Below are positions 1,180 to 62,346 of a DNA stretch of 64,000 nt, in pieces. A program made the translations under genes and the position numbers. Positions within the stretch are counted from its first letter, which is position 1, and the number at the start of each line of letters is the position of its first letter. This DNA comes from a bacterium (GTDB lineage Bacteria > Patescibacteriota > Minisyncoccia > Moranbacterales > GWC2-37-73). Below the pieces are notes generated by a model. The model did no database searches. It worked only from the letters and a program-made list of their open reading frames with translations, and had not been told where the DNA came from. The stretch lies in assembly GCA_003251635.1 (NCBI GenBank), contig QKEW01000008.1, positions 110,860-174,859 of the forward strand. The letters run 5' to 3'.

Positions 1180-3843
1180 ATGAAATTCAAAAAAATACCA
1201 AAAAGAAAAAATTTTGTAATAGCTTTAAATGTGTTTTTGGCTCTTTTTTTGGTTTTAGAGAGAACAGATTTAGTCTATGGTGCGGATTTGGTCCCTGATG
1301 ATTATGCAGATGAGGTTTCGATAATGCCTGATGTTGGTTATTCTGGCATTGATGGTCCTGAAGTGGATGTTGTTTTTGATGACTCAGAAGGAGATGGAAC
1401 TATGACGGCCAAGGCTATATCAACTGGATTTAATGGCGGGGATGAAGATTTGTATTTTACTTGGTATTTGAAAAGATCTGGTTGCGGACTGGATAAGGAT
1501 CCTTCTTCTGATAAAAAAGAAAAATGCGATGAAGATAATGATGGAAAAATAACGGAAAATGATTGGAAAGTTAAAGCTGCGAAAATAATTGCAACCAACG
1601 GTTATACTGACGAAAGTAATGGAAGCTCTTCAAATGACGGAAATGATGACGGTTATCAAGCTTATCCGGAGTGGACTGGTGATAATGATGAGCCTAACTG
1701 TTATGTTCAGGATTTTGAAGACGGGGGTATCTATGAACTCAAGGAAACGGAAGAAGTTTTTACTTGTGCTAATCCGGTTTGTGTTGCAACCAAATCACTT
1801 TCTTGTAGCGGGGACAGTAAGCAGATTTGTCAGAGGCAAGCTGAACCTGATTGCCAGGTTACTGATGCGGAAACTTTTGTATCAGCTGGACAGTGTGACG
1901 GAGGAACTTTACTGTGTTTGTCTGGATCTTTTTCAAGTTCTCTGACCGACTTGGAAATTTGTTCGGCTTTGGGTAGCAGTTCCGGAGATAGTTGCGAGTC
2001 GTTAAGTGAGACTGTGCCGGGATGCAGTTTTGTGGAGAAAACGGATGGAAATATTTGTCAGCACTTATTTGCTCAGCCGGATGATGATTTGGATGAGGAG
2101 ACGGGCGATGATGAGTTTGATGACGATGAAGAGGAATTTTGGGGAACTGATCCGAATAATAAATTTACGGCTGGCAATTCCAACGTGGATGAGGCCAATG
2201 TTGTTGGATTGGGCGTAGATGAATTTACCTGGAACTATTTAGATGGAGACAAAGTTGGCTTGGTGGTTGAAGGTGAAAGTATTATTGATACCAAGCACAA
2301 TGATGGAACGAAGATGATTATGTGGGCATTTTCAAAAAACACTTGTTCGGCCATCAGTGACGCGATTGAAGAAAGAAGTTTCTATATAGACGACTTGTAT
2401 GGTCTGGAATTTGGAATTTTGACTGTCAAAGATTTGGATTTGAATGATTGTTTGGAAGAGAACTTGTTGGATCCATCTGGTGAATCAGCTGACGGCTATT
2501 TGAGTGTTGATTTGTCAGTTTCTCCCACTGAACCAAAAAATGATCCTTTGACGGATGGTCCGGACAATCGAGGCAGCGTGGTTACTGCAATTGCTTCTGT
2601 TTTGCAATATGACAGTCCGGAAAATCTACTTTATGATTGGAATGTCGAGGTTAGCAGTGACGGAACTAACGATCCGCCGCTTTGGAAAGATATTACAGAT
2701 GAGCTCACGGAACACAGTGTGTTATCAGGACTTGGAAATAGCAAGTTGACTTTCAAATTGAATCTTCTTTATGAGGATGATATTTTCCCTAACCAAAACG
2801 TGGAGCAATATCTGAAAATAAAAGTAAGAGCGTCGGAGGGCGGGGATGCTGCCGCCAGCGGAAAGGATGAATATATTTTAAAAATAAAGCAACTTGGACC
2901 GGATGTGATGGCCTATGATGCTGCTTATTCCGAAACTACCCAGAAATTATCTTTAGGCGGAGAGCTTTGTGGCGGAGATGATGAAATTGGCGCAGATTGT
3001 TTGGTTACAGTTAATCAGATAATTGGCTTAAGTGTTCCAAATGAAGATGGAAATCTGAGTGCATTTTCATGGAAAAAAGACGGGGAAAGTTTGACCTGTA
3101 GCAGTTCCATATCTAGTGGCTGTTCCAATGGGTCATCTTCGAATTTAGCTTTTTTCCCGGTGGTGGGCTCAATTGGCGATGAAATTGAAATAACAGCCAG
3201 TGCTATGAATCAGTCAACCGGGATTACCGAAACCTTTAGTAAAAAGTTTAAGATAATTCAGCCCTACGTTAAAATCGTTTCAGCCGATTCAGATTTAGTT
3301 TGGCCAAAGCAGTTGGGATATTATAAAAATCTTGACGGCACAGTGGCCTTGGATCTGAGCGATAAAATTTTCCAAGTGGTTGAAGATACTAAGGTTAGCT
3401 TGAAGGCAACTTTTTATCCCAATTCAATAGCTGAAACAGAAGGAGTGGAGGTTGTTTGGAAAGTATTAGGTGAAAGTTATAAGGGCGAAGATGAAATTTC
3501 TTTTACGGCCAGTAAAAATGCCGGCGGTTCCTATAATATAGAAGTTTTATCCACTTATTCACAGCCTGTTTCCACTAGGATGGCTCTAGCTAATATCTGG
3601 GGTATATCGCAAGTACAAACCGATGACGAACAATTGAGCTATGAAATACAAGTTGAAGTTTTGAAAAGTGAATATGATGAAGTTGCCCTTTTGAAAAATA
3701 CTAAGAAATTTCTGGCCAATATAATTTCAAATACTCCTGAGCAAGTCGTCTTTTTCTTGAAAATAATATTAAGTGTCGTTTTATTAATTGGAATTTCTGG
3801 ATTAGGTTTTCGTTTTATTCCAGGAGCTAACAATAATGAATAA
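1180..3843 (+). CDS. Large (887 aa) acidic, Cys-rich cell-surface protein with N-terminal signal/TM and C-terminal TM anchor
   Basis: Long ORF. N-terminal hydrophobic segment, Asp/Gly/Cys-rich low-complexity body and C-terminal hydrophobic tail (VVLLIGISGLGF). Stop overlaps start of next gene (ATGA). Confidence 0.55.
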   Translation: MKFKKIPKRKNFVIALNVFLALFLVLERTDLVYGADLVPDDYADEVSIMPDVGYSGIDGPEVDVVFDDSEGDGTMTAKAISTGFNGGDEDLYFTWYLKRSGCGLDKDPSSDKKEKCDEDNDGKITENDWKVKAAKIIATNGYTDESNGSSSNDGNDDGYQAYPEWTGDNDEPNCYVQDFEDGGIYELKETEEVFTCANPVCVATKSLSCSGDSKQICQRQAEPDCQVTDAETFVSAGQCDGGTLLCLSGSFSSSLTDLEICSALGSSSGDSCESLSETVPGCSFVEKTDGNICQHLFAQPDDDLDEETGDDEFDDDEEEFWGTDPNNKFTAGNSNVDEANVVGLGVDEFTWNYLDGDKVGLVVEGESIIDTKHNDGTKMIMWAFSKNTCSAISDAIEERSFYIDDLYGLEFGILTVKDLDLNDCLEENLLDPSGESADGYLSVDLSVSPTEPKNDPLTDGPDNRGSVVTAIASVLQYDSPENLLYDWNVEVSSDGTNDPPLWKDITDELTEHSVLSGLGNSKLTFKLNLLYEDDIFPNQNVEQYLKIKVRASEGGDAAASGKDEYILKIKQLGPDVMAYDAAYSETTQKLSLGGELCGGDDEIGADCLVTVNQIIGLSVPNEDGNLSAFSWKKDGESLTCSSSISSGCSNGSSSNLAFFPVVGSIGDEIEITASAMNQSTGITETFSKKFKIIQPYVKIVSADSDLVWPKQLGYYKNLDGTVALDLSDKIFQVVEDTKVSLKATFYPNSIAETEGVEVVWKVLGESYKGEDEISFTASKNAGGSYNIEVLSTYSQPVSTRMALANIWGISQVQTDDEQLSYEIQVEVLKSEYDEVALLKNTKKFLANIISNTPEQVVFFLKIILSVVLLIGISGLGFRFIPGANNNE

Positions 3844-41667: not shown

Positions 41668-42021
41668 ATGCAAAAAATTCACAACAGAAAAGAAAAACTA
41701 GAAAGCAGAAAATTATTGCGTAAAAATGCGACACCGCAAGAGATAATTCTTTGGTCTCGATTAAAAAGTAAGCAACTTGGCTGCAAGTTCAGAAGACAAC
41801 ATTCAATCGGTAGATATATTGTCGATTTTTATTGCCCAGAACATAAATTGATTATTGAAATTGATGGATCCCAACACAAATCTGAAGAAGCTTGTAAATA
41901 CGACAAAGAAAGAACCGAATATTTAGAAAAATTAGGCTTACAGGTCATAAGGTTTTGGAACAATGAGATTAATAATAATTTAGAAGGAACTATCCTGAAG
42001 ATTTTGGGATATTTAAAATGA
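41668..42021 (+). CDS. DUF559 endonuclease-domain protein (Vsr/PD-(D/E)xK-like)
   Basis: Typical DUF559 sequence (ATPQEIILWSRLKSKQLGCKFRRQHSIGRYIVDFYCPEHKLIIEIDGSQH). Confidence 0.75.
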   Translation: MQKIHNRKEKLESRKLLRKNATPQEIILWSRLKSKQLGCKFRRQHSIGRYIVDFYCPEHKLIIEIDGSQHKSEEACKYDKERTEYLEKLGLQVIRFWNNEINNNLEGTILKILGYLK

Positions 42022-42789: not shown

Positions 42790-43506
42790 ATGTCTGGACA
42801 CAACAAATGGTCGGGAATCAAACATCGCAAAGGTGCGCAAGATGCCAAGCGAGCCAATATTTTCACCAAGTTGGCGCGTTTGATCACGATTGCTGCCAAA
42901 GAAGGGGGTGGCAATCCGGAATCCAATGTTAAGTTGAAATTTGTGATGGAACAGGCTCGCAAAGCTAATATGCCCAAGGACAATGTGGAACGAGCTATCA
43001 AAAAAGGCACCGGCGAACTCAACGACGGGTCTCAAATCGAAGAGGTACTCTATGAAGCTTATGGTCCGGGTAATATTGCCATGCTGATTAAATGTGCGAC
43101 TGATAATAAGAATCGAACAGTTGGAGAAATCAAGACGGTTCTAAACAAATTGGGTGGCAAGATGGTGCCGGAGGGCAGCGTCAGTTTTTCGTTTCGTCAA
43201 TTGGGTGAAATTGAAATAGCAGTCAATGAAGACAATTTTGAACAAGTTGAATTGGAGGCGATTGAAGCTGGAGCCGAAGATACGATTTATAGTGGTGATT
43301 TTTTGACAATTTATACTAAGCCTGAAAATCTTTGGCAGGTCAAAGCTGAATTGGAGAAAGGTGCAAGAGAAGTTGAGGGAGCAGGATTGTCCTTTGTGCC
43401 AAGTCAGAAAATTGAAATCGATCAAGACACTAAATTAGACTACGAAAACCTTTTGGAAAAATTAGATGAACTCGATGACGTCCAAGAAATTTATGACAAT
43501 TTATAA
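42790..43506 (+). CDS. yebC: YebC/PmpR-family DNA-binding transcriptional regulator
   Basis: N-terminus MSGHNKWSGIKHRKGAQDAKRANIFTKL is the YebC signature. Confidence 0.9.
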   Translation: MSGHNKWSGIKHRKGAQDAKRANIFTKLARLITIAAKEGGGNPESNVKLKFVMEQARKANMPKDNVERAIKKGTGELNDGSQIEEVLYEAYGPGNIAMLIKCATDNKNRTVGEIKTVLNKLGGKMVPEGSVSFSFRQLGEIEIAVNEDNFEQVELEAIEAGAEDTIYSGDFLTIYTKPENLWQVKAELEKGAREVEGAGLSFVPSQKIEIDQDTKLDYENLLEKLDELDDVQEIYDNL

Positions 43507-44005
43507 GGGGCTACGGGTTTTAGGTATTGATCCAGGCACGGCCACAGTTGGTTGGGCGGTTTTGGAGCAGCTTCAAAATGGTCAGGTTCAAGCGGTTGAT
43601 TATGGGCACATCAGTACCGACAAGGATGATCCAACAGCTCAAAGGCTTTTGGAAGTGGCAGATGATTTGAGGGAAATAATAAAAAAATATGAACCACAAG
43701 AGGCGGCAGTGGAAGATCTTTTCTATTTTAAAAATGCCAAGACGGTTATCAAGGTGGCTCAGGCACGCGGGGCGATTCTTTTGACTTTAGAGCGCTTAAA
43801 TGTTATAATAGGGGAGTACACACCCCTTCAGGTCAAGCAGTCGATTACCGGATATGGACGGGCGGAGAAAAAACAAATTCAGTTGATGGTAAAAAATATT
43901 TTGAAACTTCGGGAAATTCCCCGACCGGACGACACGGCTGACGCCATTGCAGTCGCGCTTTGTCATTTAAATAGCCGCAAAATGCAAAACATGCTACAGG
44001 CTTGA
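43466..44005 (+). CDS. ruvC: Crossover junction endodeoxyribonuclease RuvC (start possibly at internal MTIYKG)
   Basis: LGIDPGTATVGWAVLE N-terminal RNase H-like motif; conserved yebC-ruvC order. Confidence 0.85.
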   Translation: MNSMTSKKFMTIYKGLRVLGIDPGTATVGWAVLEQLQNGQVQAVDYGHISTDKDDPTAQRLLEVADDLREIIKKYEPQEAAVEDLFYFKNAKTVIKVAQARGAILLTLERLNVIIGEYTPLQVKQSITGYGRAEKKQIQLMVKNILKLREIPRPDDTADAIAVALCHLNSRKMQNMLQA

Positions 44006-44066: not shown

Positions 44067-44720
44067 ATGGAAAATATCAATCCGGTTTTGGCTTATTTGG
44101 TGGCTCGGGGTTTGCCTTTGGATACGGTAATCATGCTTTTCATGTTGCCGATCATTGTGACTTTGATCGCTTTTTTTCGTCAGGTAGTTGGAATTAAGGC
44201 TTTTGGAATTTATACTCCGGCTATTGTGACTTTTGCTTTTTTGACCATACCCAAGTTGCGCTACGGAGTGGTGGTTTTTGTAGCGGTTATTGTTGTGGGA
44301 ATGTTGATGCGCTATGCCTTGAAAAAGTTGAGACTGCTCTATTTGCCGCGGATGGCCATTACTTTGAGCGTGGTGGCATTTTCAATGTTGATACTTTTGG
44401 CCTTGGGCGGTTCTTTTCAGCGAACCGGTTTGGCTTCGGTCAAAATCTTTCCGATTTTGATCATGATCACTTTGGTGGAAAAATTTGTGGGAACGCAAAT
44501 TGAAAAAGGTAATCGAACAGCTTTGATTTTAGCCTTGGAGACTTTGGTAATTTCTATTATCGGATTTTATTTGGCTAGCTGGAATGGTTTAATTGAATTT
44601 ATCATCGCTTATCCCTGGGCGGTTTTATTTACCATTCCGATCAATGTCTTTTTGGGTAAGTGGGATGGTTTGCGTTTGTCGGAATATGTTCGCTTTCGCA
44701 ATGTCTTAAAGAATATGTAG
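44067..44720 (+). CDS. 7TM membrane protein of the type associated with ATP-grasp ligases (7TM_transglut-like, no transglutaminase domain)
   Basis: 217 aa, 6-7 TM helices. Family assignment from remembered family pattern and from immediate adjacency to ATP-grasp ligase genes. Confidence 0.45.
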   Translation: MENINPVLAYLVARGLPLDTVIMLFMLPIIVTLIAFFRQVVGIKAFGIYTPAIVTFAFLTIPKLRYGVVVFVAVIVVGMLMRYALKKLRLLYLPRMAITLSVVAFSMLILLALGGSFQRTGLASVKIFPILIMITLVEKFVGTQIEKGNRTALILALETLVISIIGFYLASWNGLIEFIIAYPWAVLFTIPINVFLGKWDGLRLSEYVRFRNVLKNM

Positions 44721-44761
44721 CTCGGGCCTTTGGGTTTTTCACTATTAGTCGGACTTAAACT

Positions 44762-46168
44762 ATGGAGGGAGTTTTGAAAATGTTAAAAAATGGTAGGAAA
44801 ATTCTGGGAATGAATGCTCGCAATATTGATTACGTTCGGCCTTTGAATTTGAAAAAATCCAAAAAATTGGCGGATGACAAGATTTATAGTAAAAAAGTTT
44901 TGCAAAAAGCCGGTCTGCCAGTGCCTGATCTGATTGCTAAAATTCGAACCATTGAAGAGTTGGAAAAATTTGATTGGAGCTCGCTGCCAAACAGCTTTGC
45001 TCTCAAGCCTAATCGTGGTTTTGGCGGGGAGGGTATCGTTGTGGTTTATGGCAAGAAAAAAAGTCGAGATGAATGGATCAAGGCCAATGGCGATATTTTG
45101 ACGGTGGATGATTTGAAAAATCACATTCGCAACATTATTGATGGAACTTATTCGCTTTCCAACACGCCAGACGTAGCTTTTTTTGAACAGCGCCTGACGT
45201 TGCTCAAACTTTTCAAGCCCTATTCTTTCAAAGGCATTCCGGATATTCGCGTGATTGTTTTCAACAAGGTTCCGGTCATGGCCATGCTCCGGCTGCCCAC
45301 TCAAGAATCTGGCGGTAAGGCCAATTTGCAGCAGGGCGCGATCGGAGTTGGAATTGATTTGGCAACTGGCACCACTACTACAGCCGTTTTAGGCAAGGGC
45401 CGCTATATTGAATATGTTCCCGGAAGTCGCTTGCTGCTTTCGGGTATTAAGATTCCTTATTGGCAAAGTATTTTGAAATTTTCAGTCCAAGCCCAAGAAG
45501 TTTCGGGCTTGGGATTTTTAGGTGCGGACATTGCGATTGATAAAGAGCGCGGGCCGGTTTTTTTGGAACTCAATGCACGGCCGGGGCTTTCCATTCAAAT
45601 TGCTAATCTGGGTGGCCTCAAAGAAAGACTGGAAAGAGTTAGGGGAATCAAAATCAAAACAGTTGAGCGCGGCATTCGAGTTGGTATGGATCTTTTTGGA
45701 GGTGAGATTGAAGAAGAATTGGAAGAAATTTCCGGCAAGAAGGTGATTGGTTCGATTGAGAAAATAAAGTTGATCGGCAAGGAAGGACAAGAAATTGAAG
45801 TCGAGGCTAAGATTGATACGGGGGCCATGTCGACTTCGATTGATGTTGAGTTGGCGAGGGAATTGGGATTTGGTGATTTAACTGAGTTTTTTGACAAGAT
45901 TGAATTGCCAACCGGGTTTGTCAGGGAAGAAGCTCAAAAAATTATGAAAGATTTGAAACAGAAACATCAACACCCGGATTTAATTGATATTGATATAATA
46001 TTTTCATCTAATGGTGTGTCGATTCGTCCAAAGGTTAAAATAGAATTTATAATGGATCAATTGAGAATAGCCGCTAATGTCAATATAACTCAAAGAGCGG
46101 ATTTGAAATTCCAAACCATTATAGGCAAGAGGAATCTGAGCCGGTTTTTGGTGGATGTCAATAAATAA
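44762..46168 (+). CDS. ATP-grasp ligase (alpha-L-glutamate-ligase-related / RimK-like) fused to C-terminal retropepsin-like RimB/DUF785 domain
   Basis: ATP-grasp motifs (ALKPNRGFGGEGIVV; DIRVIVFN...RLP...GGKANLQQGA; FLELNARPGL). C-terminal domain with aspartyl-protease DTGA motif (KIDTGAMSTSID) and IGKRNLSRFLVDVNK tail as in RimK-associated zinc-protease-annotated proteins. Confidence 0.7.
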   Translation: MEGVLKMLKNGRKILGMNARNIDYVRPLNLKKSKKLADDKIYSKKVLQKAGLPVPDLIAKIRTIEELEKFDWSSLPNSFALKPNRGFGGEGIVVVYGKKKSRDEWIKANGDILTVDDLKNHIRNIIDGTYSLSNTPDVAFFEQRLTLLKLFKPYSFKGIPDIRVIVFNKVPVMAMLRLPTQESGGKANLQQGAIGVGIDLATGTTTTAVLGKGRYIEYVPGSRLLLSGIKIPYWQSILKFSVQAQEVSGLGFLGADIAIDKERGPVFLELNARPGLSIQIANLGGLKERLERVRGIKIKTVERGIRVGMDLFGGEIEEELEEISGKKVIGSIEKIKLIGKEGQEIEVEAKIDTGAMSTSIDVELARELGFGDLTEFFDKIELPTGFVREEAQKIMKDLKQKHQHPDLIDIDIIFSSNGVSIRPKVKIEFIMDQLRIAANVNITQRADLKFQTIIGKRNLSRFLVDVNK

Positions 46169-47102
46169 AATAGGCATGAAAAAAAGAGTACTAATACTTT
46201 TCAACAAGAAAGATTCTGAAAAATCTATAGGATCCAAACAATATGAAGATCTTTATTTGTATGCATCTGAAAAAGGTATTGAATTTTGTCGGGCATCTAT
46301 TGATGACTATGATTTGAAGAATAATTTTTTTAGAGAAGTTCAATTTTTTGATGGGGCGAAGTGGTTTATTGAAAAAAATGTCAAGCCCGATTTGGTTTTG
46401 GACAAATCACCATATGAAATCGGCGAAGAAAGAAAAAAAATCAGAGAATATATTTCGGCTAAATACGTTTTTGTTAACGATTTGAAAATTAGCAGAGTAT
46501 TAAGTGACAAATGGGAAACCTATAAAGAATTCGAAAATTTTTCGCCCAAAACAATTTTGATAGAAAATGATCATGATTTTGAAAATATTAATTTATTAAA
46601 AACTGAAGAAATAGTCCTAAAACCTAGGAGTGGGTCTGGCGGCAAAGATGTTAAAATAATCAAAAAAATAGATTTTTCTGGGAATAAATTACAATTTCCA
46701 TTTATAGCGCAAGAAATGGTGAATGCGGAAAAAGGAATAGCGGGTTTGGTTGATGGCCCGCATGATTTGCGAATTATTTTTAAAAACAGTACTCCTTTCT
46801 ATGCTTTTCTGAGAATACCTCCAAAGGGTAAATTAATAGCTAATGTTTCAAAAGGCGGAAAAGTCAAAGTTGTTCCGATAAACAAAATTCCAGAAAATAT
46901 TTTGGATCAAGCACGATTCATATCAGAAAAAATGAGTGAATTTCAAAGCAAATTTTTTTCTATAGATTTTATTGTGGATAATGAACAAAAACCTTGGATG
47001 CTTGAAATGAATTCTCGTCCCGGACTTATTTTGGAAGACGAGGAGTTGGAATATAAAGAATATTTTTACGATAATCTTTTGGATTTTTTGCTAAGCATAT
47101 AA
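46155..47102 (+). CDS. ATP-grasp ligase, paralog A
   Basis: LKPRSGSGGKDV, DLRIIF...ANVSKGGK, WMLEMNSRPGL motifs; ends FFYDNLLDFL like the next gene. Confidence 0.6.
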   Translation: MSINKIGMKKRVLILFNKKDSEKSIGSKQYEDLYLYASEKGIEFCRASIDDYDLKNNFFREVQFFDGAKWFIEKNVKPDLVLDKSPYEIGEERKKIREYISAKYVFVNDLKISRVLSDKWETYKEFENFSPKTILIENDHDFENINLLKTEEIVLKPRSGSGGKDVKIIKKIDFSGNKLQFPFIAQEMVNAEKGIAGLVDGPHDLRIIFKNSTPFYAFLRIPPKGKLIANVSKGGKVKVVPINKIPENILDQARFISEKMSEFQSKFFSIDFIVDNEQKPWMLEMNSRPGLILEDEELEYKEYFYDNLLDFLLSI

Positions 47103-47107
47103 TATTT

Positions 47108-48070
47108 ATGAAAAAAATATTAGTTTTATTTAAAAAAAGTGATTGGAAAAAAGACTATATTCCTGATGAAAAATATAGATTTTCATACGAATATTTTTAT
47201 AATAAATGCGCCGAAAAAGGAATTGAAATATATAGAGCTTCTTTTGGTTGGTATGATTTCAGAAAAAAAATATTTAGACATGCTTGGAAGTTTAATATTG
47301 ACAATCAAAATTGGGAAAGAGTTGCTGATATTGTCCCGGATTTGATATTTGATAAGGTTAAGCATAATGCTGAATCTTATAGTAAGACTGAGTTGATAAA
47401 TTCTAAATATAAATTTTTTAATTCGTTAGAGTTTACGAAAATTATTGACAATAAAATTGTAACGTCAATGTTGTTTTCGGAGTGGTCAAAAAAATGCATC
47501 GTTATTAATAGCCAAGAGGAACTTAAAGCATCGCTAGAACAGATTCAGACTGAAATGGCTGTTCTAAAGCCTACAAACGAAAGTGGTGGCAACGGTGTTA
47601 TTATAGGGAAAAAAGAGGAAATATTGAATGTTGTTGGCAGAAACAAAAAAATGTTGAATAATTTTATATTACAAGAATTTATCGACTCGTCAGCTGGAAT
47701 ACCAGGCATAACAATCGGAATACATGATCTTAGGCTGGTTCTTATAAATAAAAAAATTGTTTATTCTTACATAAGAAAACCAGCGAAAGGAAGTTATTTA
47801 GCCAATCTTGCTCAGGGAGGAACTAAGGATATAATTGATATAAGAAAACTGCCAAGGTCCTTGGATGAGATAGTCAAAAGGGCCCATGATATTTTCTCAT
47901 CTTTTAAATCGAAGATTTATACGATAGATGTTATGTTTGATCAAAGCGAAAGGCCTTTTGTGATCGAATTGAATTCTATGCCTGGGGCGCATTTCGAGGC
48001 TGGTCAAGAGTCTGCCAGAAAATTTTTTTATGACAATCTCCTTGAAGTTTTTTTAGATGAATTAAATTGA
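47108..48070 (+). CDS. ATP-grasp ligase, paralog B (tandem duplicate of 46155..47102)
   Basis: LKPTNESGGNGV, DLRLVLIN...ANLAQGGT, FVIELNSMPGA motifs; ends FFYDNLLEVFL. Confidence 0.6.
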   Translation: MKKILVLFKKSDWKKDYIPDEKYRFSYEYFYNKCAEKGIEIYRASFGWYDFRKKIFRHAWKFNIDNQNWERVADIVPDLIFDKVKHNAESYSKTELINSKYKFFNSLEFTKIIDNKIVTSMLFSEWSKKCIVINSQEELKASLEQIQTEMAVLKPTNESGGNGVIIGKKEEILNVVGRNKKMLNNFILQEFIDSSAGIPGITIGIHDLRLVLINKKIVYSYIRKPAKGSYLANLAQGGTKDIIDIRKLPRSLDEIVKRAHDIFSSFKSKIYTIDVMFDQSERPFVIELNSMPGAHFEAGQESARKFFYDNLLEVFLDELN

Positions 48071-48268
48071 TGATTTGTTTACTTTGAGATTAGAAAATTT
48101 AAATCAATTTTTACATGGTAAACCCTAAGTTTTTTAATTAAACGACCAAGTAGGTTTTTCTAATGAAAGTTGGATGGTTATGAATTGATTGGCTGATTTA
48201 TAGATTCTATAAAATCTTTGGCCTAACTATAATTTGTTTAAAATTTCGGGAAAACTAAGTAATATTTT

Positions 48269-49177
48269 ATGGAGAATTTAAGTCAGCCAAAATTTTTGAT
48301 AATAGGAAGAGAAGATAATGAGAATGTGAAAGATTTGAAGTGGGAAATTCGGCGGCGGGGTTGTAGAGTTGCGTGTGCCCAAATGAAAAATTTGACAATG
48401 AAAATAGATAAGAGCGACGGTTTTTTTGAATTTGTTGATACTAAGAATATTTTAAAGGTAGCGGATATTTTTATTTTCAGAATGTATAAAGATAGTATTC
48501 TTGAGGCTAAAATGCTTGCTAAGTGGCTGCTTAGTCATGATAAAGTCGTTATTGATAAATTCTTATTTAGCAAAGTGGCTTCAACTAAGCAATTTGATGC
48601 AAATTTGTTAGTTATTAACAAAATTCCCCAAATTAAAACCGTGTATTCTTTGAATGAGCGTGGTTGGGCTGATGCGCTTTCATCCTTGCGTAGCCCAATA
48701 ATAGTTAAGCCAGATAATGGCTCAAAAGGCCAGGGAATAATAAAATTTGAATCTTGTGGCGAGGCTCTGGATTTTTTGAAAAAAAATGTAAATGGTTTTA
48801 TAGCACAAGAATATATTTCAATTAAAAGTGATATTCGAATTTTTGTGGTTGGCGGAAGTGTTTTAGGCGGGATTGAAAGGCGTGTTGTTGAAAATGACTT
48901 TCGTTCCAATGTTTCCTTGGGGGCTGATGTTATTCCGGTTGAAGTTACAAAAGAAATGAGAAAAATATCATTAATGGCAGTTTCTGCTTTAAAGCTCGAT
49001 ATTGCCGGGGTTGATCTTATAAAACACGAAAATAGATGGCATGTCCTAGAGGTTAATGCTGCTCCGCAATGGCAAGGATTTAAAAAAGCTACCGGAATCA
49101 ATCCAGCAGAGCAAATTGTGAATTTGGCAATGAAAAGGTACAAGAAAAAGAATAAAAAATTTTTTGGTTTATTTTGA
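48269..49177 (+). CDS. RimK/LysX-family ATP-grasp alpha-L-glutamate ligase-like protein
   Basis: IVKPDNGSKGQGI, DIRIFVVGGSVLGGIERR...FRSNVSLGA, GVDLIK...WHVLEVNAAPQWQGF match the RimK-family pattern. Confidence 0.7.
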   Translation: MENLSQPKFLIIGREDNENVKDLKWEIRRRGCRVACAQMKNLTMKIDKSDGFFEFVDTKNILKVADIFIFRMYKDSILEAKMLAKWLLSHDKVVIDKFLFSKVASTKQFDANLLVINKIPQIKTVYSLNERGWADALSSLRSPIIVKPDNGSKGQGIIKFESCGEALDFLKKNVNGFIAQEYISIKSDIRIFVVGGSVLGGIERRVVENDFRSNVSLGADVIPVEVTKEMRKISLMAVSALKLDIAGVDLIKHENRWHVLEVNAAPQWQGFKKATGINPAEQIVNLAMKRYKKKNKKFFGLF

Positions 49178-49555
49178 TGTTTAAATGTCCATAATCTTTT
49201 GCGGAATGCGCTGTTGAATGTATTTTGTAGTTTTTTGCTGAACAAGATTTTTGAGAGAAATAAAATTTCTATTAAATAAATAATCATGTTTAAACACAAG
49301 AAAGAAAATTATTTATATCCCGAAAGAGTCTCTTTGGGTCTTGAAAAATCCTTAAAAAGACTGGTGAAATAGCTAAAAGTGGAGACGTTGTTTTGGTAAT
49401 TAAGGGTAATGAGACAAAAAGAACAATTAAATATTTAAAGAATTTTTTAAATATAAAAAACAGTTGATTTGAAATTAGGTTTCTGCATTGCCTTTCCCCC
49501 TTTCTCGTGCTATGATGGGGCGTGATAAGTTTGATAAGTTATTTTTTTAACTTTT

Positions 49556-52120
49556 ATGCGAAATTTTTTTTCCAAACGAAAATTACAACGAGACTCGTCT
49601 CAAAAATCTGAAAACAGGCGTAATTGGTGGAAAATAATCTGGAGAACTGGACTGATCTTGGCTCTGGTCGGCTTTTTAGCGGTGGCTGGAGTTTTTATTT
49701 ATTTTGCCAAGGATTTGCCGGACCCGGGCAAAGTTAATAGTCGCAACGTAGCTGAGTCGACCAAGATTTATGATCGAACCGGCAACAATTTACTCTATGA
49801 AATTCACGGCGAAGAAAAAAGAACGCTAGTAGCTTTTGAAGATATTCCGGATGCGGTCAAATATGCCACGATCGCTTTGGAGGATCAAGATTTCTATTCC
49901 CATCATGGAATCAAGGTCACCTCAATTATTCGGGCGGCAGTAAAGGATGTTTTGAATCGGGGAGCGGTCCAAGGAGCTTCAACCATCACGCAGCAATTTG
50001 TGAAAAATTCTTTGCTGACTTCCGAGAAAGCTTTGACTCGTAAAATTAAGGAGGCAATCTTATCGCTGGAAATCGAACAGAAATTTTCCAAAGATGAAAT
50101 TTTAGGCATGTATTTGAACGAGATTCCCTACGGATCCAATGCTTACGGAGTTGAGGCGGCGGCTCAAACTTTTTTTGCCAAATCGGCGCGCGATCTGACC
50201 TTGGATGAGGCAGCTATATTGGCTTCTTTGCCGCAAGCCCCTTCACGCTATTCGCCGTATGGATCCAAGACGGACGTTTTGAAAGCCAGGCAGGAAATTG
50301 CTTTGGATAAAATGGCTTCTTTTGGTTATATAACTCAGCAACAAGCAGATGAGGCTAAGGCGGTGGATGTGCTATCGAAAATTGTGGCTAAGAAAGAGGA
50401 TATCAAAGCCCCGCATTTTGTGATGTATGTTAAAGAATATTTGGAAGAAACTTATGGACAAGATGTTTTGGAGCAAGGTGGTTTGAAAGTTTATACCACT
50501 TTGGATTGGGACAAGCAACAGATTGCTGAAAAGGCGGTGGCGGAAGGAGCCGAGAAGAATTTAGCTAATTGGAATGCGGCTAATGCCTCAATGGTGGCAA
50601 TTGATCCGAAAACCGGACAAATTTTGGTTATGGTGGGTTCCAAAGATTATTTTGGTGCCAGTTATCCGGAAGGTTGTACTCCCGGTAAAAATTGTCTTTT
50701 TGAGCCGAATGTTAATGTTTCAATTCGGGATCGACAGCCTGGATCATCTTTCAAGCCCTATGTTTATCTGACGGCTTTCACTAAAGGCTATTCGCCGGAA
50801 ACTATGATTTTTGATGTTGAGACTAACTTTAGTACCAATGAAGACAAAGATTACACTCCGCAAAATTATGATGGTCAGTTCCGCGGACCTTTGAAGATGA
50901 AGGAGGCTTTGGCGCAGTCTTTGAACATTCCAGCAGTTAAAACTTTATATTTAGCTGGAGTTAAGGATTCCATTGCTACGGCTAAAAGTTTAGGAAACAG
51001 TGGACTGAATGAGCCTGATCGCTACGGACTTTCTTTGGTGTTGGGTGGCGGCGAAGTTAAACTGCTTGAACACGTTGGTGCTTTTTCGGTTTTGGCCAAT
51101 GATGGGGTTAAGCAAAACAGAACTGCTATTTTGCGAGTAGAGGATGCCAATGGAGATATCTTGGAGGAATATAAAGACAAAGAAGGGGAGCAAGTGGTGG
51201 AAGAAAAATATGTGGCCATGTTGGATCACGTTCTTTCAACTAACGATTATCGGGCACCAGTATTTGGAAACAACAATTTACTTAAGTTTGATGATCGGCA
51301 AGTAGCAGCTAAAACTGGAACAACCAATGAATTTCGTGATGGTTGGGTGATGGGCTACACTCCCTCTTTGGCGGTTGGCGTTTGGGTGGGAAATAATGAC
51401 AACACGGCTATGAAACCAGGAGCGGACGGTTCAATTGTGGCAGCTCCGATTTGGCGCAGCTTTTTGAACCAAGTCTTGGGAAACTATACAAAGGAAGAAT
51501 TTCCAAAATATGAAAAACCTGACAAGGACAGTGAAGATTACGTTGACAAGCCGATGCTTAATGGCGAATTGGATATCGAAAAGGATGTGAAGGTTTGCAA
51601 GATAAAGGACGGCGAATATTGTTTGGCTAATAAATATTGCACCTCTGATCAAGAGAAGAAGCGGGATTTTGCCAATGTGCATAACATTTTGTATTACGTG
51701 AAACTGGATGATCCGCGTGGTGACTATCCGGATAAGCCGAAAAGTGATATTCAGTATAAGAATTGGGAAAAAGGCGTGGAAGCTTGGTATGAAAAAGAAG
51801 AGAAAAATAATAAGGATGTTGTCTTAGGCCAAAAACCGGAAGATGACTGTAAGCAAGATGATTTTAAGGATAATTTGCCCAGCGTTTCTTTGTCCGTTTC
51901 TAAATCAGATGGCAAAGTTACCTTGACGGCTGATATTGATGCTCCGTATGGAACTGACAGTGTGAAATTTTCAGTTGATGGCAGTGAGATTTCTTCGGAC
52001 GGCAAAAAAGCAACCTATGAAATTCCAGACGATAAGGTTGGTGAAAAAGTTGAATGCAAAGTCGTCTTAAAAGATGAAAATGGCAATGAGGATAGTGATA
52101 GTAAAGAAGTTGAATTGTAG
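49556..52120 (+). CDS. Class A penicillin-binding protein (PBP1A: glycosyltransferase + transpeptidase) with C-terminal extension
   Basis: GT51 motifs (EDQDFYSHHGI, RQQGASTITQQ) and transpeptidase SxxK/KTG (KTGTTNEF); N-terminal TM anchor. Confidence 0.85.
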   Translation: MRNFFSKRKLQRDSSQKSENRRNWWKIIWRTGLILALVGFLAVAGVFIYFAKDLPDPGKVNSRNVAESTKIYDRTGNNLLYEIHGEEKRTLVAFEDIPDAVKYATIALEDQDFYSHHGIKVTSIIRAAVKDVLNRGAVQGASTITQQFVKNSLLTSEKALTRKIKEAILSLEIEQKFSKDEILGMYLNEIPYGSNAYGVEAAAQTFFAKSARDLTLDEAAILASLPQAPSRYSPYGSKTDVLKARQEIALDKMASFGYITQQQADEAKAVDVLSKIVAKKEDIKAPHFVMYVKEYLEETYGQDVLEQGGLKVYTTLDWDKQQIAEKAVAEGAEKNLANWNAANASMVAIDPKTGQILVMVGSKDYFGASYPEGCTPGKNCLFEPNVNVSIRDRQPGSSFKPYVYLTAFTKGYSPETMIFDVETNFSTNEDKDYTPQNYDGQFRGPLKMKEALAQSLNIPAVKTLYLAGVKDSIATAKSLGNSGLNEPDRYGLSLVLGGGEVKLLEHVGAFSVLANDGVKQNRTAILRVEDANGDILEEYKDKEGEQVVEEKYVAMLDHVLSTNDYRAPVFGNNNLLKFDDRQVAAKTGTTNEFRDGWVMGYTPSLAVGVWVGNNDNTAMKPGADGSIVAAPIWRSFLNQVLGNYTKEEFPKYEKPDKDSEDYVDKPMLNGELDIEKDVKVCKIKDGEYCLANKYCTSDQEKKRDFANVHNILYYVKLDDPRGDYPDKPKSDIQYKNWEKGVEAWYEKEEKNNKDVVLGQKPEDDCKQDDFKDNLPSVSLSVSKSDGKVTLTADIDAPYGTDSVKFSVDGSEISSDGKKATYEIPDDKVGEKVECKVVLKDENGNEDSDSKEVEL

Positions 52121-62256: not shown

Positions 62257-62346
62257 GGAGAGGTCGCATAGTGGTCGAGTGCACCGCCTTGGAAAGGCGG
62301 CATACTGTCAAAGGTATCGGGAGTTCGAATCTCCCCCTCTCCGCCA
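62257..62346 (+). tRNA. tRNA-Ser (anticodon GGA), 90 nt with long variable arm and encoded CCA
   Basis: GGAGAGG...CCTCTCC acceptor stem, D-arm GTCGCATAGTGGTCGAGTGCAC, anticodon stem-loop CCGCC-TTGGAAA-GGCGG, variable arm, T-arm GGGAGTTCGAATCTCCC, CCA. Confidence 0.85.

What the first reader, a model, noticed from the sequence alone, without database searches (positions are those of the whole stretch)
44067..49177. Cluster of four ATP-grasp peptide ligases (one fused to a retropepsin-like RimB/DUF785 domain) plus a 7TM membrane partner: candidate novel peptide-ligation/modification system
Five co-directional, tightly spaced genes form the cluster. They are a 7TM membrane protein, an alpha-L-glutamate-ligase-related ATP-grasp whose C-terminus carries a DTGA aspartyl-protease-type domain, two tandemly duplicated ATP-grasp paralogs, and a RimK/LysX-type ligase. 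In Pseudomonas the protease domain is a separate gene (RimB) in the RimABK operon. RimK-family enzymes add poly-alpha-L-glutamate tails to proteins such as ribosomal protein S6, and 7TM-associated ATP-grasp proteins have been proposed as peptide-modification or signalling systems. Four different ATP-grasp enzymes in one operon suggests stepwise, ribosome-independent assembly or multi-site modification of a peptide or protein, possibly linked to the membrane by the 7TM protein. I know of no characterised system with this architecture.
Basis: partly seen in the sequence, partly recalled or inferred. Interest (0 to 1): 0.85.

Follow-up and report, generated by a model that had tools for sequence, protein, structure and literature searches.

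The report
Rlo-like peptide ligase cluster, CPR variant
This is a compact candidate-phyla-radiation (Moranbacteria) version of the recently named Rlo system, in which a 7TM membrane protein is paired with a glutamate-ligase-like enzyme fused to a polyglutamate-type protease, followed by three extra ligase genes from a strain-variable, low-GC cassette; it is a new variant of a known but biochemically unsolved kind of system, not a wholly new one.

Summary
The first two genes form an invariant core. One is a 217-aa 7TM protein (PF14402), which corresponds to the C-terminal module of RloB without its transglutaminase-like domain. The other is a 468-aa RloC-type ATP-grasp (PF14397/TIGR02291) joined by a conserved acidic linker to a RimB/RloA-type retropepsin domain. 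That domain keeps K350, D352-T-G-A, R422 and R445, the residues that bind and cut polyglutamate in Pseudomonas RloA. The pair sits between ruvC and the PBP1A gene in 79 of 79 informative related genomes.

The three downstream ATP-grasp genes are different in character. They share only 31–37% median identity with their relatives, against 62–65% for the core. They have 30–35% GC against 41–42%. They lie in a slot that holds 1–4 accessory ligases in 65 of 66 genomes, together with MATCAP-like carboxypeptidases, cyanophycin-synthetase-like halves, GNAT, glycosyltransferase and YdjC genes.

The most likely function is ATP-dependent building and trimming of an acidic peptide chain at the membrane, diversified by the cassette. 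The core kind is already known: rloABC was characterised genetically in 2025. The fusion, the truncated 7TM partner and the variable ligase cassette have not been described. Product and acceptor remain unknown.

The parts
44067..44720 (+). g1: 217-aa stand-alone 7TM membrane protein, equivalent to the RloB C-terminal module. It has no transglutaminase-like ectodomain and carries a conserved C-terminal motif W199-x-G-L-R-x-x-E-Y-x-R-F.
   Evidence: PF14402, 98.5 bits. NCBIfam RloB positions 305-508 of 508 only. 29% identity to residues 310-503 of the Legionella 508-aa inactive-transglutaminase protein. About 7 hydrophobic segments and 7 predicted helices. Homologues are 70-82% identical and about 218 aa. 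RuvC ends at 44005, so there is no room for an N-terminal domain.
44762..45694 (+). g2 N-terminal part (aa 1-311): RloC-type ATP-grasp ligase ('alpha-L-glutamate ligase-like').
   Evidence: PF14397, 233 bits; TIGR02291, 287.6 bits over profile positions 9-291 of 317. The AlphaFold model's closest solved folds are ArgX/LysX, PsnB, RimK and Ddl. Catalytic residues are kept.
45695..45736 (+). g2 linker (aa 312-325): FGGEIEEELEEISG, an invariant acidic linker.
   Evidence: F312, G313, G314, E315, E317, E321, S324 and G325 are invariant in 38 homologues. The motif is present in most fusions at 40-53% identity and absent from stand-alone RloC-type proteins. pLDDT is below 50 for residues 315-330. 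Sequence confirmed.
45737..46168 (+). g2 C-terminal part (aa 326-468): RimB/RloA-type retropepsin-like aspartic peptidase domain. It has no signal peptide, so it is cytoplasmic. D-T-G-A lies at 45815-45826.
   Evidence: PF05618, 26.1 bits. Profile against PDB: 9G58 2e-7, 9G59 6.5e-6, 2PMA 1e-3. K350, D352, R422 and R445 align with the K, D, R, R residues that coordinate and cleave polyGlu in RloA, with spacing 2/70/23 against 2/66/23.
46155..47102 (+). g3: accessory ATP-grasp ligase (315 aa), g3-type. It overlaps the end of g2 by 14 bp.
   Evidence: PF14398, 60 bits, plus weak GSH-S/RimK hits. 33% identical to g4. GC 30.3%, GC3 25%. Relatives in 42 loci, median identity 34%.
47108..48070 (+). 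g4: accessory ATP-grasp ligase (320 aa), g4-type.
   Evidence: PF08443, 53 bits. 341 homologues, all Patescibacteria/Moranbacteria; nearest 56% identical. Three of three homologues examined lie directly after a 7TM+fusion core. GC 31.0%.
48071..48268 (.). 198-bp AT-rich gap (24.7% GC) before g5; possible internal promoter.
   Evidence: No terminator-like site in the gap and no promoter-like site inside it either, so the promoter suggestion rests on AT-richness only. No credible small ORF.
48269..49177 (+). g5: accessory RimK-family alpha-L-glutamate-ligase-type ATP-grasp (302 aa).
   Evidence: TIGR00768, 154.6 bits against a cutoff of 143.4. MptN, LysX and RimK equivalogs all fall below their cutoffs. 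PDB RimK 5ZCT/4IWX at E 1.5e-21. GC 34.8%.
43466..44005 (+). ruvC: conserved upstream anchor of the locus. It marks synteny and is not part of the system.
   Evidence: L083 and L087 gene tables.
49556..52120 (+). Class A penicillin-binding protein (PBP1A-type): conserved downstream anchor, possibly functionally linked.
   Evidence: It follows the slot in 66 of 80 loci. It also follows the slot where the upstream flank differs (L086). In L089 it starts 25 bp after the last ligase gene. Transgly+Transpeptidase Pfam calls.

Best explanation
The cluster has a two-gene conserved core and a variable cassette.

Core: a Moranbacteria form of the Rlo system. A cytoplasmic RloC-type ATP-grasp ligase works at the membrane with a 7TM partner (the RloB module). 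It is covalently fused, through a conserved acidic linker, to a retropepsin-like endopeptidase specialised for Glu-rich chains.

Cassette: g3, g4 and g5 are three further cytoplasmic amide ligases drawn from a strain-variable, low-GC slot.

Proposed mechanism:
1. The core ligase uses ATP to add acidic residues, most likely alpha-linked Glu, to a carboxylate acceptor.
2. The fused peptidase, acting as a dimer, trims or limits that chain in the same compartment, as RimB does for RimK.
3. The accessory ligases start, extend or decorate the chain with genome-specific residues.
4. The 7TM protein docks the ligase by its cytoplasmic C-terminal helix and passes the product to, or couples it with, the cell envelope.

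Shown here: gene and domain content, intact catalytic residues, conserved linkage, the fusions, and the variability and composition of the slot.

Inferred: glutamate as substrate, the acceptor, export or anchoring by the 7TM protein, and co-transcription.
For: Domains and catalytic residues:
- The retropepsin domain matches the RloA structures.
- It keeps K350, D352, R422 and R445, which equal the polyGlu-coordinating and catalytic K46, D48, R114 and R137 of RloA. Mutating those residues abolishes polyE cleavage and complementation.
- All four ATP-grasps keep their catalytic residues.

Conserved linkage:
- The core pair is present in 79 of 79 loci with upstream sequence.
- It is as conserved as housekeeping neighbours: median identity 62-65%, against 63% for RuvC and 59% for PBP1A.

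Fusion proteins elsewhere tie the modules together:
- 7TM+ATP-grasp (P0248).
- ATP-grasp+retropepsin+MATCAP (about 790 aa).
- ATP-grasp+retropepsin+YdjC.
- The 7TM+ligase fusion also places the 7TM C-terminus in the cytoplasm.

Accessory ligases belong with the core:
- At least one is present in 65 of 66 slots.
- Three of three g4 homologues sit directly after a core.
- They stay adjacent where the flanks differ (L082 and L086).

Other slot genes also act on acidic peptide chains or their tails:
- MATCAP-type carboxypeptidases.
- Cyanophycin-synthetase G- and M-domain homologues.
- A RimK-family ligase.

Genetics in P. aeruginosa: loss of rloB or rloC suppresses the loss of all RloA peptidases. 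This means the ligase and the 7TM protein generate what the peptidase must remove.

Structure: the closest solved folds of the core ligase are C-terminal peptide or protein ligases, namely ArgX/LysX and RimK.
Against: - No enzyme of the RloC family has a demonstrated substrate or product, so Glu is an inference from the peptidase and from family names.
- The peptidase here is cytoplasmic and fused, whereas RloA is secreted. The Pseudomonas model of trimming outside the cytoplasm cannot be carried over directly.
- The 7TM model is of low confidence (pLDDT 63) and matches no solved transporter. Export is therefore unsupported by structure.
- g2 falls short of the TIGR02291 cutoff, and PF05618 is 0.9 bits under its cutoff.
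- g5 follows a 198-bp gap and might be expressed separately.
- In some relatives the D-T-G-A motif has decayed (P0193, P0152, P0137), so peptidase activity is not universally required.
Confidence: 0.5

Rival explanations
1. Cytoplasmic protein-tail editing, RimK/RimB-like. The ligases add Glu or other residues to the C-terminus of one or more cytoplasmic proteins, for example ribosomal protein S6. The retropepsin domain, and MATCAP in other genomes, remove them. The 7TM protein acts only as a membrane anchor or sensor that regulates the enzymes.
For: - The peptidase domain has no signal peptide and is fused to a cytoplasmic enzyme, like cytoplasmic RimB, which binds RimK.
- g5 is a bona fide RimK-family member and aligns with RimK structures.
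- The nearest folds of g2 are protein C-terminal ligases.
- MATCAP relatives act on protein C-terminal tails (Pfam name).
Against: - The ligase type is TIGR02291/PF14397, not RimK, and it is always paired with the 7TM protein.
- Glycosyltransferase, YdjC and GNAT genes in the slot fit a non-protein or envelope product better.
- No ORF with an acidic tail or a long polyE run lies in or near the cluster.
- Hypervariability of the cassette is unexpected for modification of a conserved cytoplasmic protein.
Confidence: 0.2
2. Peptidoglycan-linked function. The ligases build or vary a peptide attached to cell-wall precursors (a side chain or cross-bridge), or they control the neighbouring class A PBP, and the locus is part of a cell-wall module.
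For: - The PBP1A gene follows the slot in 66 of 80 loci and keeps doing so when the upstream flank changes (L086). It starts 25 bp after the last ligase gene in L089.
- A distant locus has MurE-like and MurL genes downstream (L082).
- g3 weakly resembles the archaeal pseudomurein ATP-grasp.
- Pseudomonas rlo mutants show cell-shape and beta-lactam phenotypes, and the authors speculate about peptidoglycan synthases.
Against: - The same synteny block also holds yebC, ruvC and ruvA, which are unrelated to the wall, so adjacency may be mere gene order.
- In the window a 378-bp gap separates g5 from the PBP gene.
- None of the four ligases reaches a Ddl or Mur family cutoff.
- L085 has the core without wall genes.
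Confidence: 0.12
3. The three downstream ATP-grasp genes are functionally unrelated to the core. The ruvC-PBP1A interval would simply be a recombination hot spot where horizontally acquired genes accumulate.
For: - The slot has lower GC than its flanks in 65 of 65 loci, by 7.3 points on average.
- Gene content and order vary widely.
- Accessory genes are only 31-37% identical between genomes.
Against: - The cargo is not random. 65 of 66 slots hold amide ligases, almost all co-directional with the core.
- The same families are fused to the core protein elsewhere.
- Accessory ligases stay next to the core in loci with other flanks.
- There are no defence-system hits, and g4, the one accessory gene searched against phage records, gave no match.
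Confidence: 0.08
4. RiPP (graspetide-type) maturation of a ribosomal precursor peptide by ATP-grasp macrocyclases, with the peptidase removing the leader and the 7TM protein exporting the product.
For: - g5 has a very weak hit to ATP-grasp RiPP maturase models (28 bits against a cutoff of 350).
- PsnB appears among the structural neighbours of g2.
Against: - There is no precursor-like small ORF in the gaps.
- The family scores are far below cutoffs.
- The peptidase has a polyGlu-type basic substrate channel, not a leader-peptidase signature.
Confidence: 0.02

Closest known systems
rloABC operon of Pseudomonas aeruginosa (Lormand et al., mBio 2025, PMC12239564); an annotated example lies on a Legionella adelaidensis plasmid, L091
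   Same: - The same three protein families are linked: PF05618 retropepsin-like peptidase, PF14402 7TM protein and PF14397/TIGR02291 ATP-grasp.
- The peptidase keeps the polyGlu-binding K/R residues and the catalytic Asp.
- g1 aligns with the 7TM half of the RloB-type protein at 29% identity.
   Different: - The peptidase is fused to the C-terminus of the ligase and has no signal peptide, so it is cytoplasmic. RloA is a separate, secreted protein.
- The 7TM protein lacks the roughly 300-aa inactive transglutaminase ectodomain.
- Gene order is B-C::A rather than A-B-C.
- It carries one to four extra amide ligases in a variable slot.
- The host is a CPR bacterium, whereas RloB was reported as 96% proteobacterial.
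RimK-RimB (RimABK) ribosomal protein S6 polyglutamylation system
   Same: - An ATP-grasp ligase is paired with a cytoplasmic retropepsin-like peptidase that cuts Glu chains.
- RimB binds RimK. Here the two activities are in one polypeptide.
- g5 is a RimK-family member.
   Different: - The fused ligase is not RimK-type: TIGR00768 scores only 46 bits for g2.
- There is a 7TM partner, which Rim lacks.
- There is no RimA.
- No evidence points to S6 as the target.
Cyanophycin synthetase (CphA) and other non-ribosomal poly-amino-acid synthetases
   Same: - ATP-grasp-driven, template-free extension of an acidic peptide backbone.
- Other Moranbacteria carry split CphA G-domain and M-domain homologues in the same slot.
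   Different: - The window itself has no CphA-like gene.
- None of its ligases approaches the CphA cutoffs.
Eukaryotic tubulin tail code (TTL/TTLL ATP-grasp ligases with MATCAP/CCP peptidases)
   Same: - The logic is the same: several ATP-grasp ligases write, and dedicated peptidases erase, acidic or terminal residues on a chain.
- MATCAP homologues are fused to or adjacent to the core in relatives.
- There are weak TTL Pfam hits for g3 and g4.
   Different: - This is an analogy of design only.
- There is no MATCAP gene in this window, the acceptor is unknown, and the system is bacterial and membrane-associated.

Membership tests
Rlo system (rloABC) | ATP-grasp of the 'alpha-L-glutamate ligase-like' family (TIGR02291 / PF14397), as in RloC | tested here: inconclusive
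   PF14397 scores 233 bits against a cutoff of 31.4, so that test is met. TIGR02291 scores 287.6 bits against a cutoff of 314.2 while covering profile positions 9-291 of 317, so it is just below.
Rlo system (rloABC) | [quoted passage not shown] | tested here: not met
   Only the 7TM module is present: PF14402 at 98.5 bits, and NCBIfam RloB at 85 bits against a cutoff of 900, matching positions 305-508 only. There is no room for an N-terminal domain, because ruvC ends 61 bp upstream.
Rlo system (rloABC) | Retropepsin-like peptidase with catalytic D-T-G-A and a basic polyGlu-binding channel (K46, R114, R137 in RloA) | tested here: met
   K350, D352-T-G-A, R422 and R445 are invariant in 38 homologues and align with 9G58/9G59.
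Rlo system (rloABC) | The peptidase is secreted (N-terminal signal peptide); this is what separates RloA from RimB | tested here: not met
   The domain is internal, fused after a cytoplasmic ATP-grasp. g2 has no hydrophobic segment (maximum KD19 of 1.24).
Rlo system (rloABC) | The three modules are encoded together | tested here: met
   g1 and g2 are adjacent (41 bp apart) in the window and in 79 of 79 related loci with upstream sequence.
Rlo system (rloABC) | Genetic interaction: loss of the ligase or the 7TM protein suppresses loss of the peptidase; osmotic-stress phenotype | not testable with these tools
   Requires genetics in a cultivable host.
RimK family alpha-L-glutamate ligases (TIGR00768) | Whole-protein score above the curated cutoff, with ATP-grasp catalytic residues present (tested for g5) | tested here: met
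   154.6 bits against a cutoff of 143.4. Aligns with RimK 5ZCT/4IWX at E 1.5e-21, with DIR, DFRSN and EVN conserved.
RimK family alpha-L-glutamate ligases (TIGR00768) | Assignment to a specific equivalog (RimK-S6 ligase, LysX, MptN or CofF) for g5 | tested here: not met
   Scores against cutoffs: PRK10446 83/331, LysX 112/276, MptN 128/350, CofF 75/300.
RimK family alpha-L-glutamate ligases (TIGR00768) | Poly-alpha-L-glutamate synthesis or C-terminal glutamylation activity | not testable with these tools
   Needs an enzyme assay.
   The best Ddl scores are about 15-22 bits against cutoffs of 243-246. The best GshB scores are about 29-57 bits against cutoffs of 272-408.
Graspetide (RiPP) ATP-grasp maturases | Family score above cutoff and an adjacent precursor peptide gene | tested here: not met
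   TIGR04187 scores 28 bits against a cutoff of 350. There is no plausible small ORF.

The most novel reading that the evidence does not exclude
Moranbacteria may use a conserved membrane-docked ligase-peptidase core plus a swappable, low-GC cassette of ATP-grasp and Mur-type ligases, carboxypeptidases and sugar-modifying enzymes to make strain-specific, non-ribosomal acidic peptide polymers for the cell envelope. This would be a peptide counterpart of O-antigen or capsule locus variation in ultra-small episymbiotic bacteria. A second element of this reading is that the invariant acidic linker (FGGEIEEELEEISG) acts as a built-in pseudo-substrate or self-cleavage site for the retropepsin domain, as in a retroviral polyprotein.
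Probability: 0.2. Interest if true: 0.8.

Novelty: new variant of a known kind. Interest (0 to 1): 0.55.

Why it matters
The biochemical role of RloB and RloC is still open. In Pseudomonas the operon affects osmotic tolerance, beta-lactam sensitivity, biofilm formation and cell shape, but neither the ligase product nor the peptidase substrate is known.

The CPR variant adds natural experiments that constrain the mechanism:
- The ligase and the polyGlu-type peptidase are in one polypeptide, so they act on the same chain in the same compartment.
- The 7TM module works without the transglutaminase-like ectodomain.
- The 7TM protein and the ligase are fused in some lineages, so they dock physically.
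- The system recruits further poly-amino-acid enzymes: RimK-type, cyanophycin-synthetase-type and MATCAP-type.

It also shows that the family is not mainly gammaproteobacterial, contrary to what was reported. It is as conserved as ruvC in a whole CPR lineage with very small genomes, which suggests an important envelope-related role. Finally, the hypervariable ligase cassette is a candidate source of surface or peptide diversity in bacteria that depend on contact with hosts.

Tried and rejected
- **Fold search for the 7TM protein.** The AlphaFold model was too weak (pLDDT 63) and Foldseek against PDB found nothing with E below 3.9. This gives no information on a transporter-like fold.
- **Sequence search of g2 against PDB.** It found only a marginal Ddl hit. 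The single C-terminal domain gave spurious PPR-repeat hits ahead of 9G58. This was resolved by using a profile.
- **Anti-phage defence.** There were no PADLOC hits for any of the five proteins.
- **Phage or plasmid origin.** tblastn of g4 against phage records gave no match. Plasmid records contained only ordinary rloC-type genes.
- **RiPP precursor or carrier peptide.** There is no credible small ORF in the 198-bp and 378-bp gaps. A 64-aa ORF in L086 looks like a split ATP-grasp N-terminus rather than a carrier.
- **Acidic-tailed substrate.** None is encoded in the window.
- **RNA elements.** Rfam finds nothing in the region.
- **Promoter and terminator scan.** It was not informative.
- **Source of the window.** Exact look-ups gave no name or record.
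- **Literature.** Iyer et al. 2009 (PMC3268129) could not be read. My memory that it predicted this association is therefore unverified. No paper in the library mentions PF14402, PF14397 or TIGR02291, or an ATP-grasp system of this kind in CPR bacteria.

Full report
**Observation.** The five ORFs exist as described, all on the + strand:
- g1, 44067-44720
- g2, 44762-46168
- g3, 46155-47102
- g4, 47108-48070
- g5, 48269-49177

The spacing between them is 41 bp, a 14-bp overlap, 5 bp and 198 bp. Upstream lie yebC and ruvC. Downstream lie a class A PBP gene (49556-52120) and ruvA.

**Family scans**:
- g1 is PF14402 7TM_transglut (98.5 bits). It matches only positions 305-508 of the 508-residue NCBIfam RloB model.
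- g2 is PF14397 (233 bits) and TIGR02291 'alpha-L-glutamate ligase-like' (287.6 bits, cutoff 314). It also has a weak PF05618/RloA-type match over aa 325-467.
- g3 and g4 are unclassified ATP-grasps with YheCD, RimK and GSH-S hits.
- g5 passes the RimK-family cutoff (154.6 against 143.4) but reaches no specific equivalog.
- All four keep the ATP-grasp catalytic residues.
- g3 and g4 are 33% identical over their full length. They are old paralogues, and the same g3-type then g4-type order is seen in L028, L037 and L060.

**The known system behind the core.** NCBIfam's RloA and RloB names led to Lormand et al. 2025 (PMC12239564). In P. aeruginosa, rloA encodes a secreted retropepsin-like peptidase. 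rloB encodes an inactive transglutaminase fused to 7 TM helices. rloC encodes a cytoplasmic ATP-grasp that is 24% identical to RimK. The three genes form an operon. RloA cuts runs of at least 8 Glu in vitro, using D48 and the basic residues K46, R114 and R137. Deleting rloB or rloC suppresses the triple-peptidase mutant. An annotated rloABC example lies on a Legionella plasmid, and g1 aligns with residues 310-503 of its 508-aa RloB-type protein (29% identity).

**The fused peptidase domain.**
- An alignment of 38 homologues shows invariant K350-x-D352-T-G-A355, R422-P423 and R445.
- A profile of the domain finds the two RloA-family crystal structures from that paper (9G58 at 2e-7, 9G59 at 6.5e-6, identity of the entries). 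It also finds Legionella 2PMA.
- In those alignments the K, D, R and R residues line up, with spacing 2/70/23 against 2/66/23 in RloA.
- The domain therefore has the catalytic Asp and the polyGlu-binding residues. It has no signal peptide and follows a cytoplasmic enzyme, so its location resembles that of RimB.

**The linker.**
- Between the two domains lies FGGEIEEELEEISG (aa 312-325). It is invariant at eight positions.
- It is retained in most fusions down to about 40% identity and is absent from stand-alone RloC-type proteins.
- It is predicted to be disordered (pLDDT below 50).
- A Glu-rich, conserved, flexible segment next to a polyGlu-type protease suggests a pseudo-substrate or a self-processing site. 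This is inference only. RloA needs about 8 consecutive Glu, and the linker has 6 Glu in 8 residues, interrupted by Ile and Leu.

**Core versus cassette.**
- A scan of one genome per species returned 80 loci, nearly all Moranbacteria.
- tblastn mapping shows yebC-ruvC-7TM-fusion-[variable region]-PBP1A. The 7TM gene is present in all 79 loci that include upstream sequence.
- Median identity to the window is 62% for g1 and 65% for g2, comparable with 63% for RuvC and 59% for PBP1A. It is only 34%, 37% and 31% for g3, g4 and g5.
- The interval between the fusion gene and PBP1A ranges from 88 bp to 6.2 kb.
- ORF clustering with Pfam and NCBIfam finds the following in that interval:
  - ATP-grasps of the g3/g4/g5 kind in 55 of 66 loci
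  - a cyanophycin-synthetase G-domain-like ATP-grasp in 31 loci
  - a CphA M-domain-like Mur ligase in 5 loci
  - MATCAP-type metallopeptidases in 10 loci
  - GT1 glycosyltransferases in 7 loci
  - GNAT in 6 loci
  - YdjC in 6 loci
  - an unknown 617-aa protein with an HExxH-like motif in 5 loci
- 65 of 66 slots carry at least one accessory ligase. The split is 1 ligase in 20 loci, 2 in 31, 3 in 11 and 4 in 3.
- The slot has lower GC than its flanks in 65 of 65 loci, by 7.3 points on average (Wilcoxon p = 2.4e-12). In the window, g3-g5 have 30-35% GC (GC3 25-29%) against 41-42% for g1, g2 and PBP1A.

**Are the accessory genes linked to the core or only neighbours?**
- Three g4 homologues, chosen only for their long contigs, all lie directly after a 7TM+fusion pair.
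- In L086 the upstream flank is different (an M50 peptidase), yet the order is 7TM, fusion, then four further ATP-grasp genes.
- In L082 and L083, where the fusion proteins are 38-48% identical to g2, the core is again followed by ATP-grasp and MATCAP genes. L083 has a PKD ectodomain on the 7TM protein and an 800-aa ATP-grasp+retropepsin+MATCAP fusion.
- An exhaustive search of cluster representatives with Pfam shows the following architectures:
  - ATP-grasp+retropepsin (about 465 aa)
  - the same plus MATCAP (about 790 aa)
  - the same plus YdjC
  - 7TM+ATP-grasp (P0248)
  - stand-alone RloC-type proteins (about 300-330 aa)
- These fusions argue for one pathway. The 7TM+ligase fusion also places the 7TM C-terminus, with its conserved W-x-G-L-R-x-x-E-Y-x-R-F motif, in the cytoplasm next to the ligase.

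**Most likely mechanism (confidence about 0.5).**
1. The RloC-type ligase, docked on the 7TM protein, extends an acidic chain with ATP. The chain is probably alpha-linked Glu.
2. The fused retropepsin domain, which must dimerise as retropepsins do, trims or limits the chain.
3. g3, g4 and g5 start, extend or decorate the chain in a genome-specific way.
4. The 7TM protein couples the product to the envelope.

The substrate, the acceptor and any export step are inferred and not shown. The closest solved folds of the ligase are ArgX/LysX, PsnB, RimK and Ddl. This fits ligation onto a peptide carboxylate but does not identify the substrate.

**Rivals.**
- A purely cytoplasmic RimK/RimB-like protein-tail editor (0.2) fits the location of the peptidase and the RimK-family g5. 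It does not explain the obligatory 7TM partner or the sugar-related slot genes.
- A peptidoglycan-linked role (0.12) draws on the persistent PBP1A neighbour, which starts 25 bp after the last ligase gene in L089. It also draws on the Mur genes in L082 and on the Pseudomonas phenotypes. The same block also contains ruvC and yebC, however.
- A mere insertion hot spot (0.08) is contradicted by the non-random ligase and peptidase cargo and by the fusions.
- A RiPP system (0.02) lacks a precursor gene.

**Comparison with known systems, and novelty.**
- The locus works like Rlo and Rim. It contains all three Rlo protein families and the key peptidase residues.
- It fails two defining features of rloABC, namely a secreted peptidase and a transglutaminase-like ectodomain. 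The NCBIfam equivalog scores are also far below their cutoffs.
- I therefore rate it a new variant of a known kind.
- The published survey described RloB as 96% proteobacterial and the operon as a gammaproteobacterial innovation. Here the core is universal in a CPR lineage.
- I found no paper describing the CPR variant or its cassette.
- My recollection that Iyer et al. 2009 predicted the association of ATP-grasp, 7TM-transglutaminase and peptidase could not be checked.

**Limits.**
- All functional statements about substrates rest on homology and gene context.
- The 7TM model is unreliable.
- Operon structure was not measured.
- Several MAG labels among the loci (for example 'Bdellovibrionales' and 'Bathyarchaeia') conflict with their Moranbacteria-like synteny and are probably mis-assignments.

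Noticed in passing
L025 9368-11618; the same families occur in 31 and 5 of 66 loci respectively: Other Moranbacteria carry, in the same slot, separate genes that resemble the G (ATP-grasp) and M (Mur-ligase) domains of cyanophycin synthetase. They score 181 and 215 bits over CphA positions 155-472 and 481-859. The G-like gene usually occurs without the M-like gene.
   Followed up: partly
L083 3474-5876 (P0138); L082 508-1614 and 4539-6392; P0123 and P0137: MATCAP-type metallocarboxypeptidase homologues (DUF1704/QEGLA) are fused to the ATP-grasp+retropepsin protein or encoded next to it. This makes systems with one ligase and two peptidases.
   Followed up: partly
P0193 (L082 2318-3706), P0152, P0137; alignment A5: In some distant fusions the D-T-G-A motif has decayed (VNTTR, VDSSN, IDTSR). 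The retropepsin domain is probably inactive there but is retained.
   Followed up: no
window 46001-49555, and 65 related loci: The slot between the fusion gene and the PBP1A gene has lower GC than its flanks in every locus examined, by 7.3 points on average. This resembles surface-polysaccharide loci.
   Followed up: yes
L089 6960-6985; L046 (88-bp slot): In some genomes the PBP1A gene starts 25-88 bp after the last gene of the system, so it may be co-transcribed. In the window the gap is 378 bp.
   Followed up: partly
L085 7904-8665: A heliorhodopsin gene lies two genes downstream of a 7TM+fusion core in a distant relative, after an uncharacterised 591-aa protein.
   Followed up: no
window 44762 versus 44780: The g2 start codon is ambiguous. 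The ORF gives 468 aa from ATG 44762, but the public gene call (P0001) is 462 aa starting at Met7. Homologues have about four residues before the conserved LKN motif.
   Followed up: partly
L001, L007, L008, L024, L061 and others (record titles): Many MAGs labelled 'uncultured Bdellovibrionales', 'Micavibrio' or 'Bathyarchaeia archaeon' share 60-70% identity and full yebC-ruvC-core-PBP1A synteny with Moranbacteria. The labels look wrong.
   Followed up: no
window 41668-42021 (+): A 117-aa ORF lies between a TrmB-like regulator ORF and yebC. By eye it resembles a DUF559/Vsr-like endonuclease domain. This was not tested.
   Followed up: no
window 62257-62343 (+): This is the only Rfam hit in the window: an 87-nt tRNA, long enough to carry a long variable arm.
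   Followed up: no
window 1180-3843 (+): This 887-aa ORF is the only one in the window with an acidic run of at least 6 residues (DDDEEE). It is 40 kb from the cluster and was not examined as a candidate substrate.
   Followed up: no
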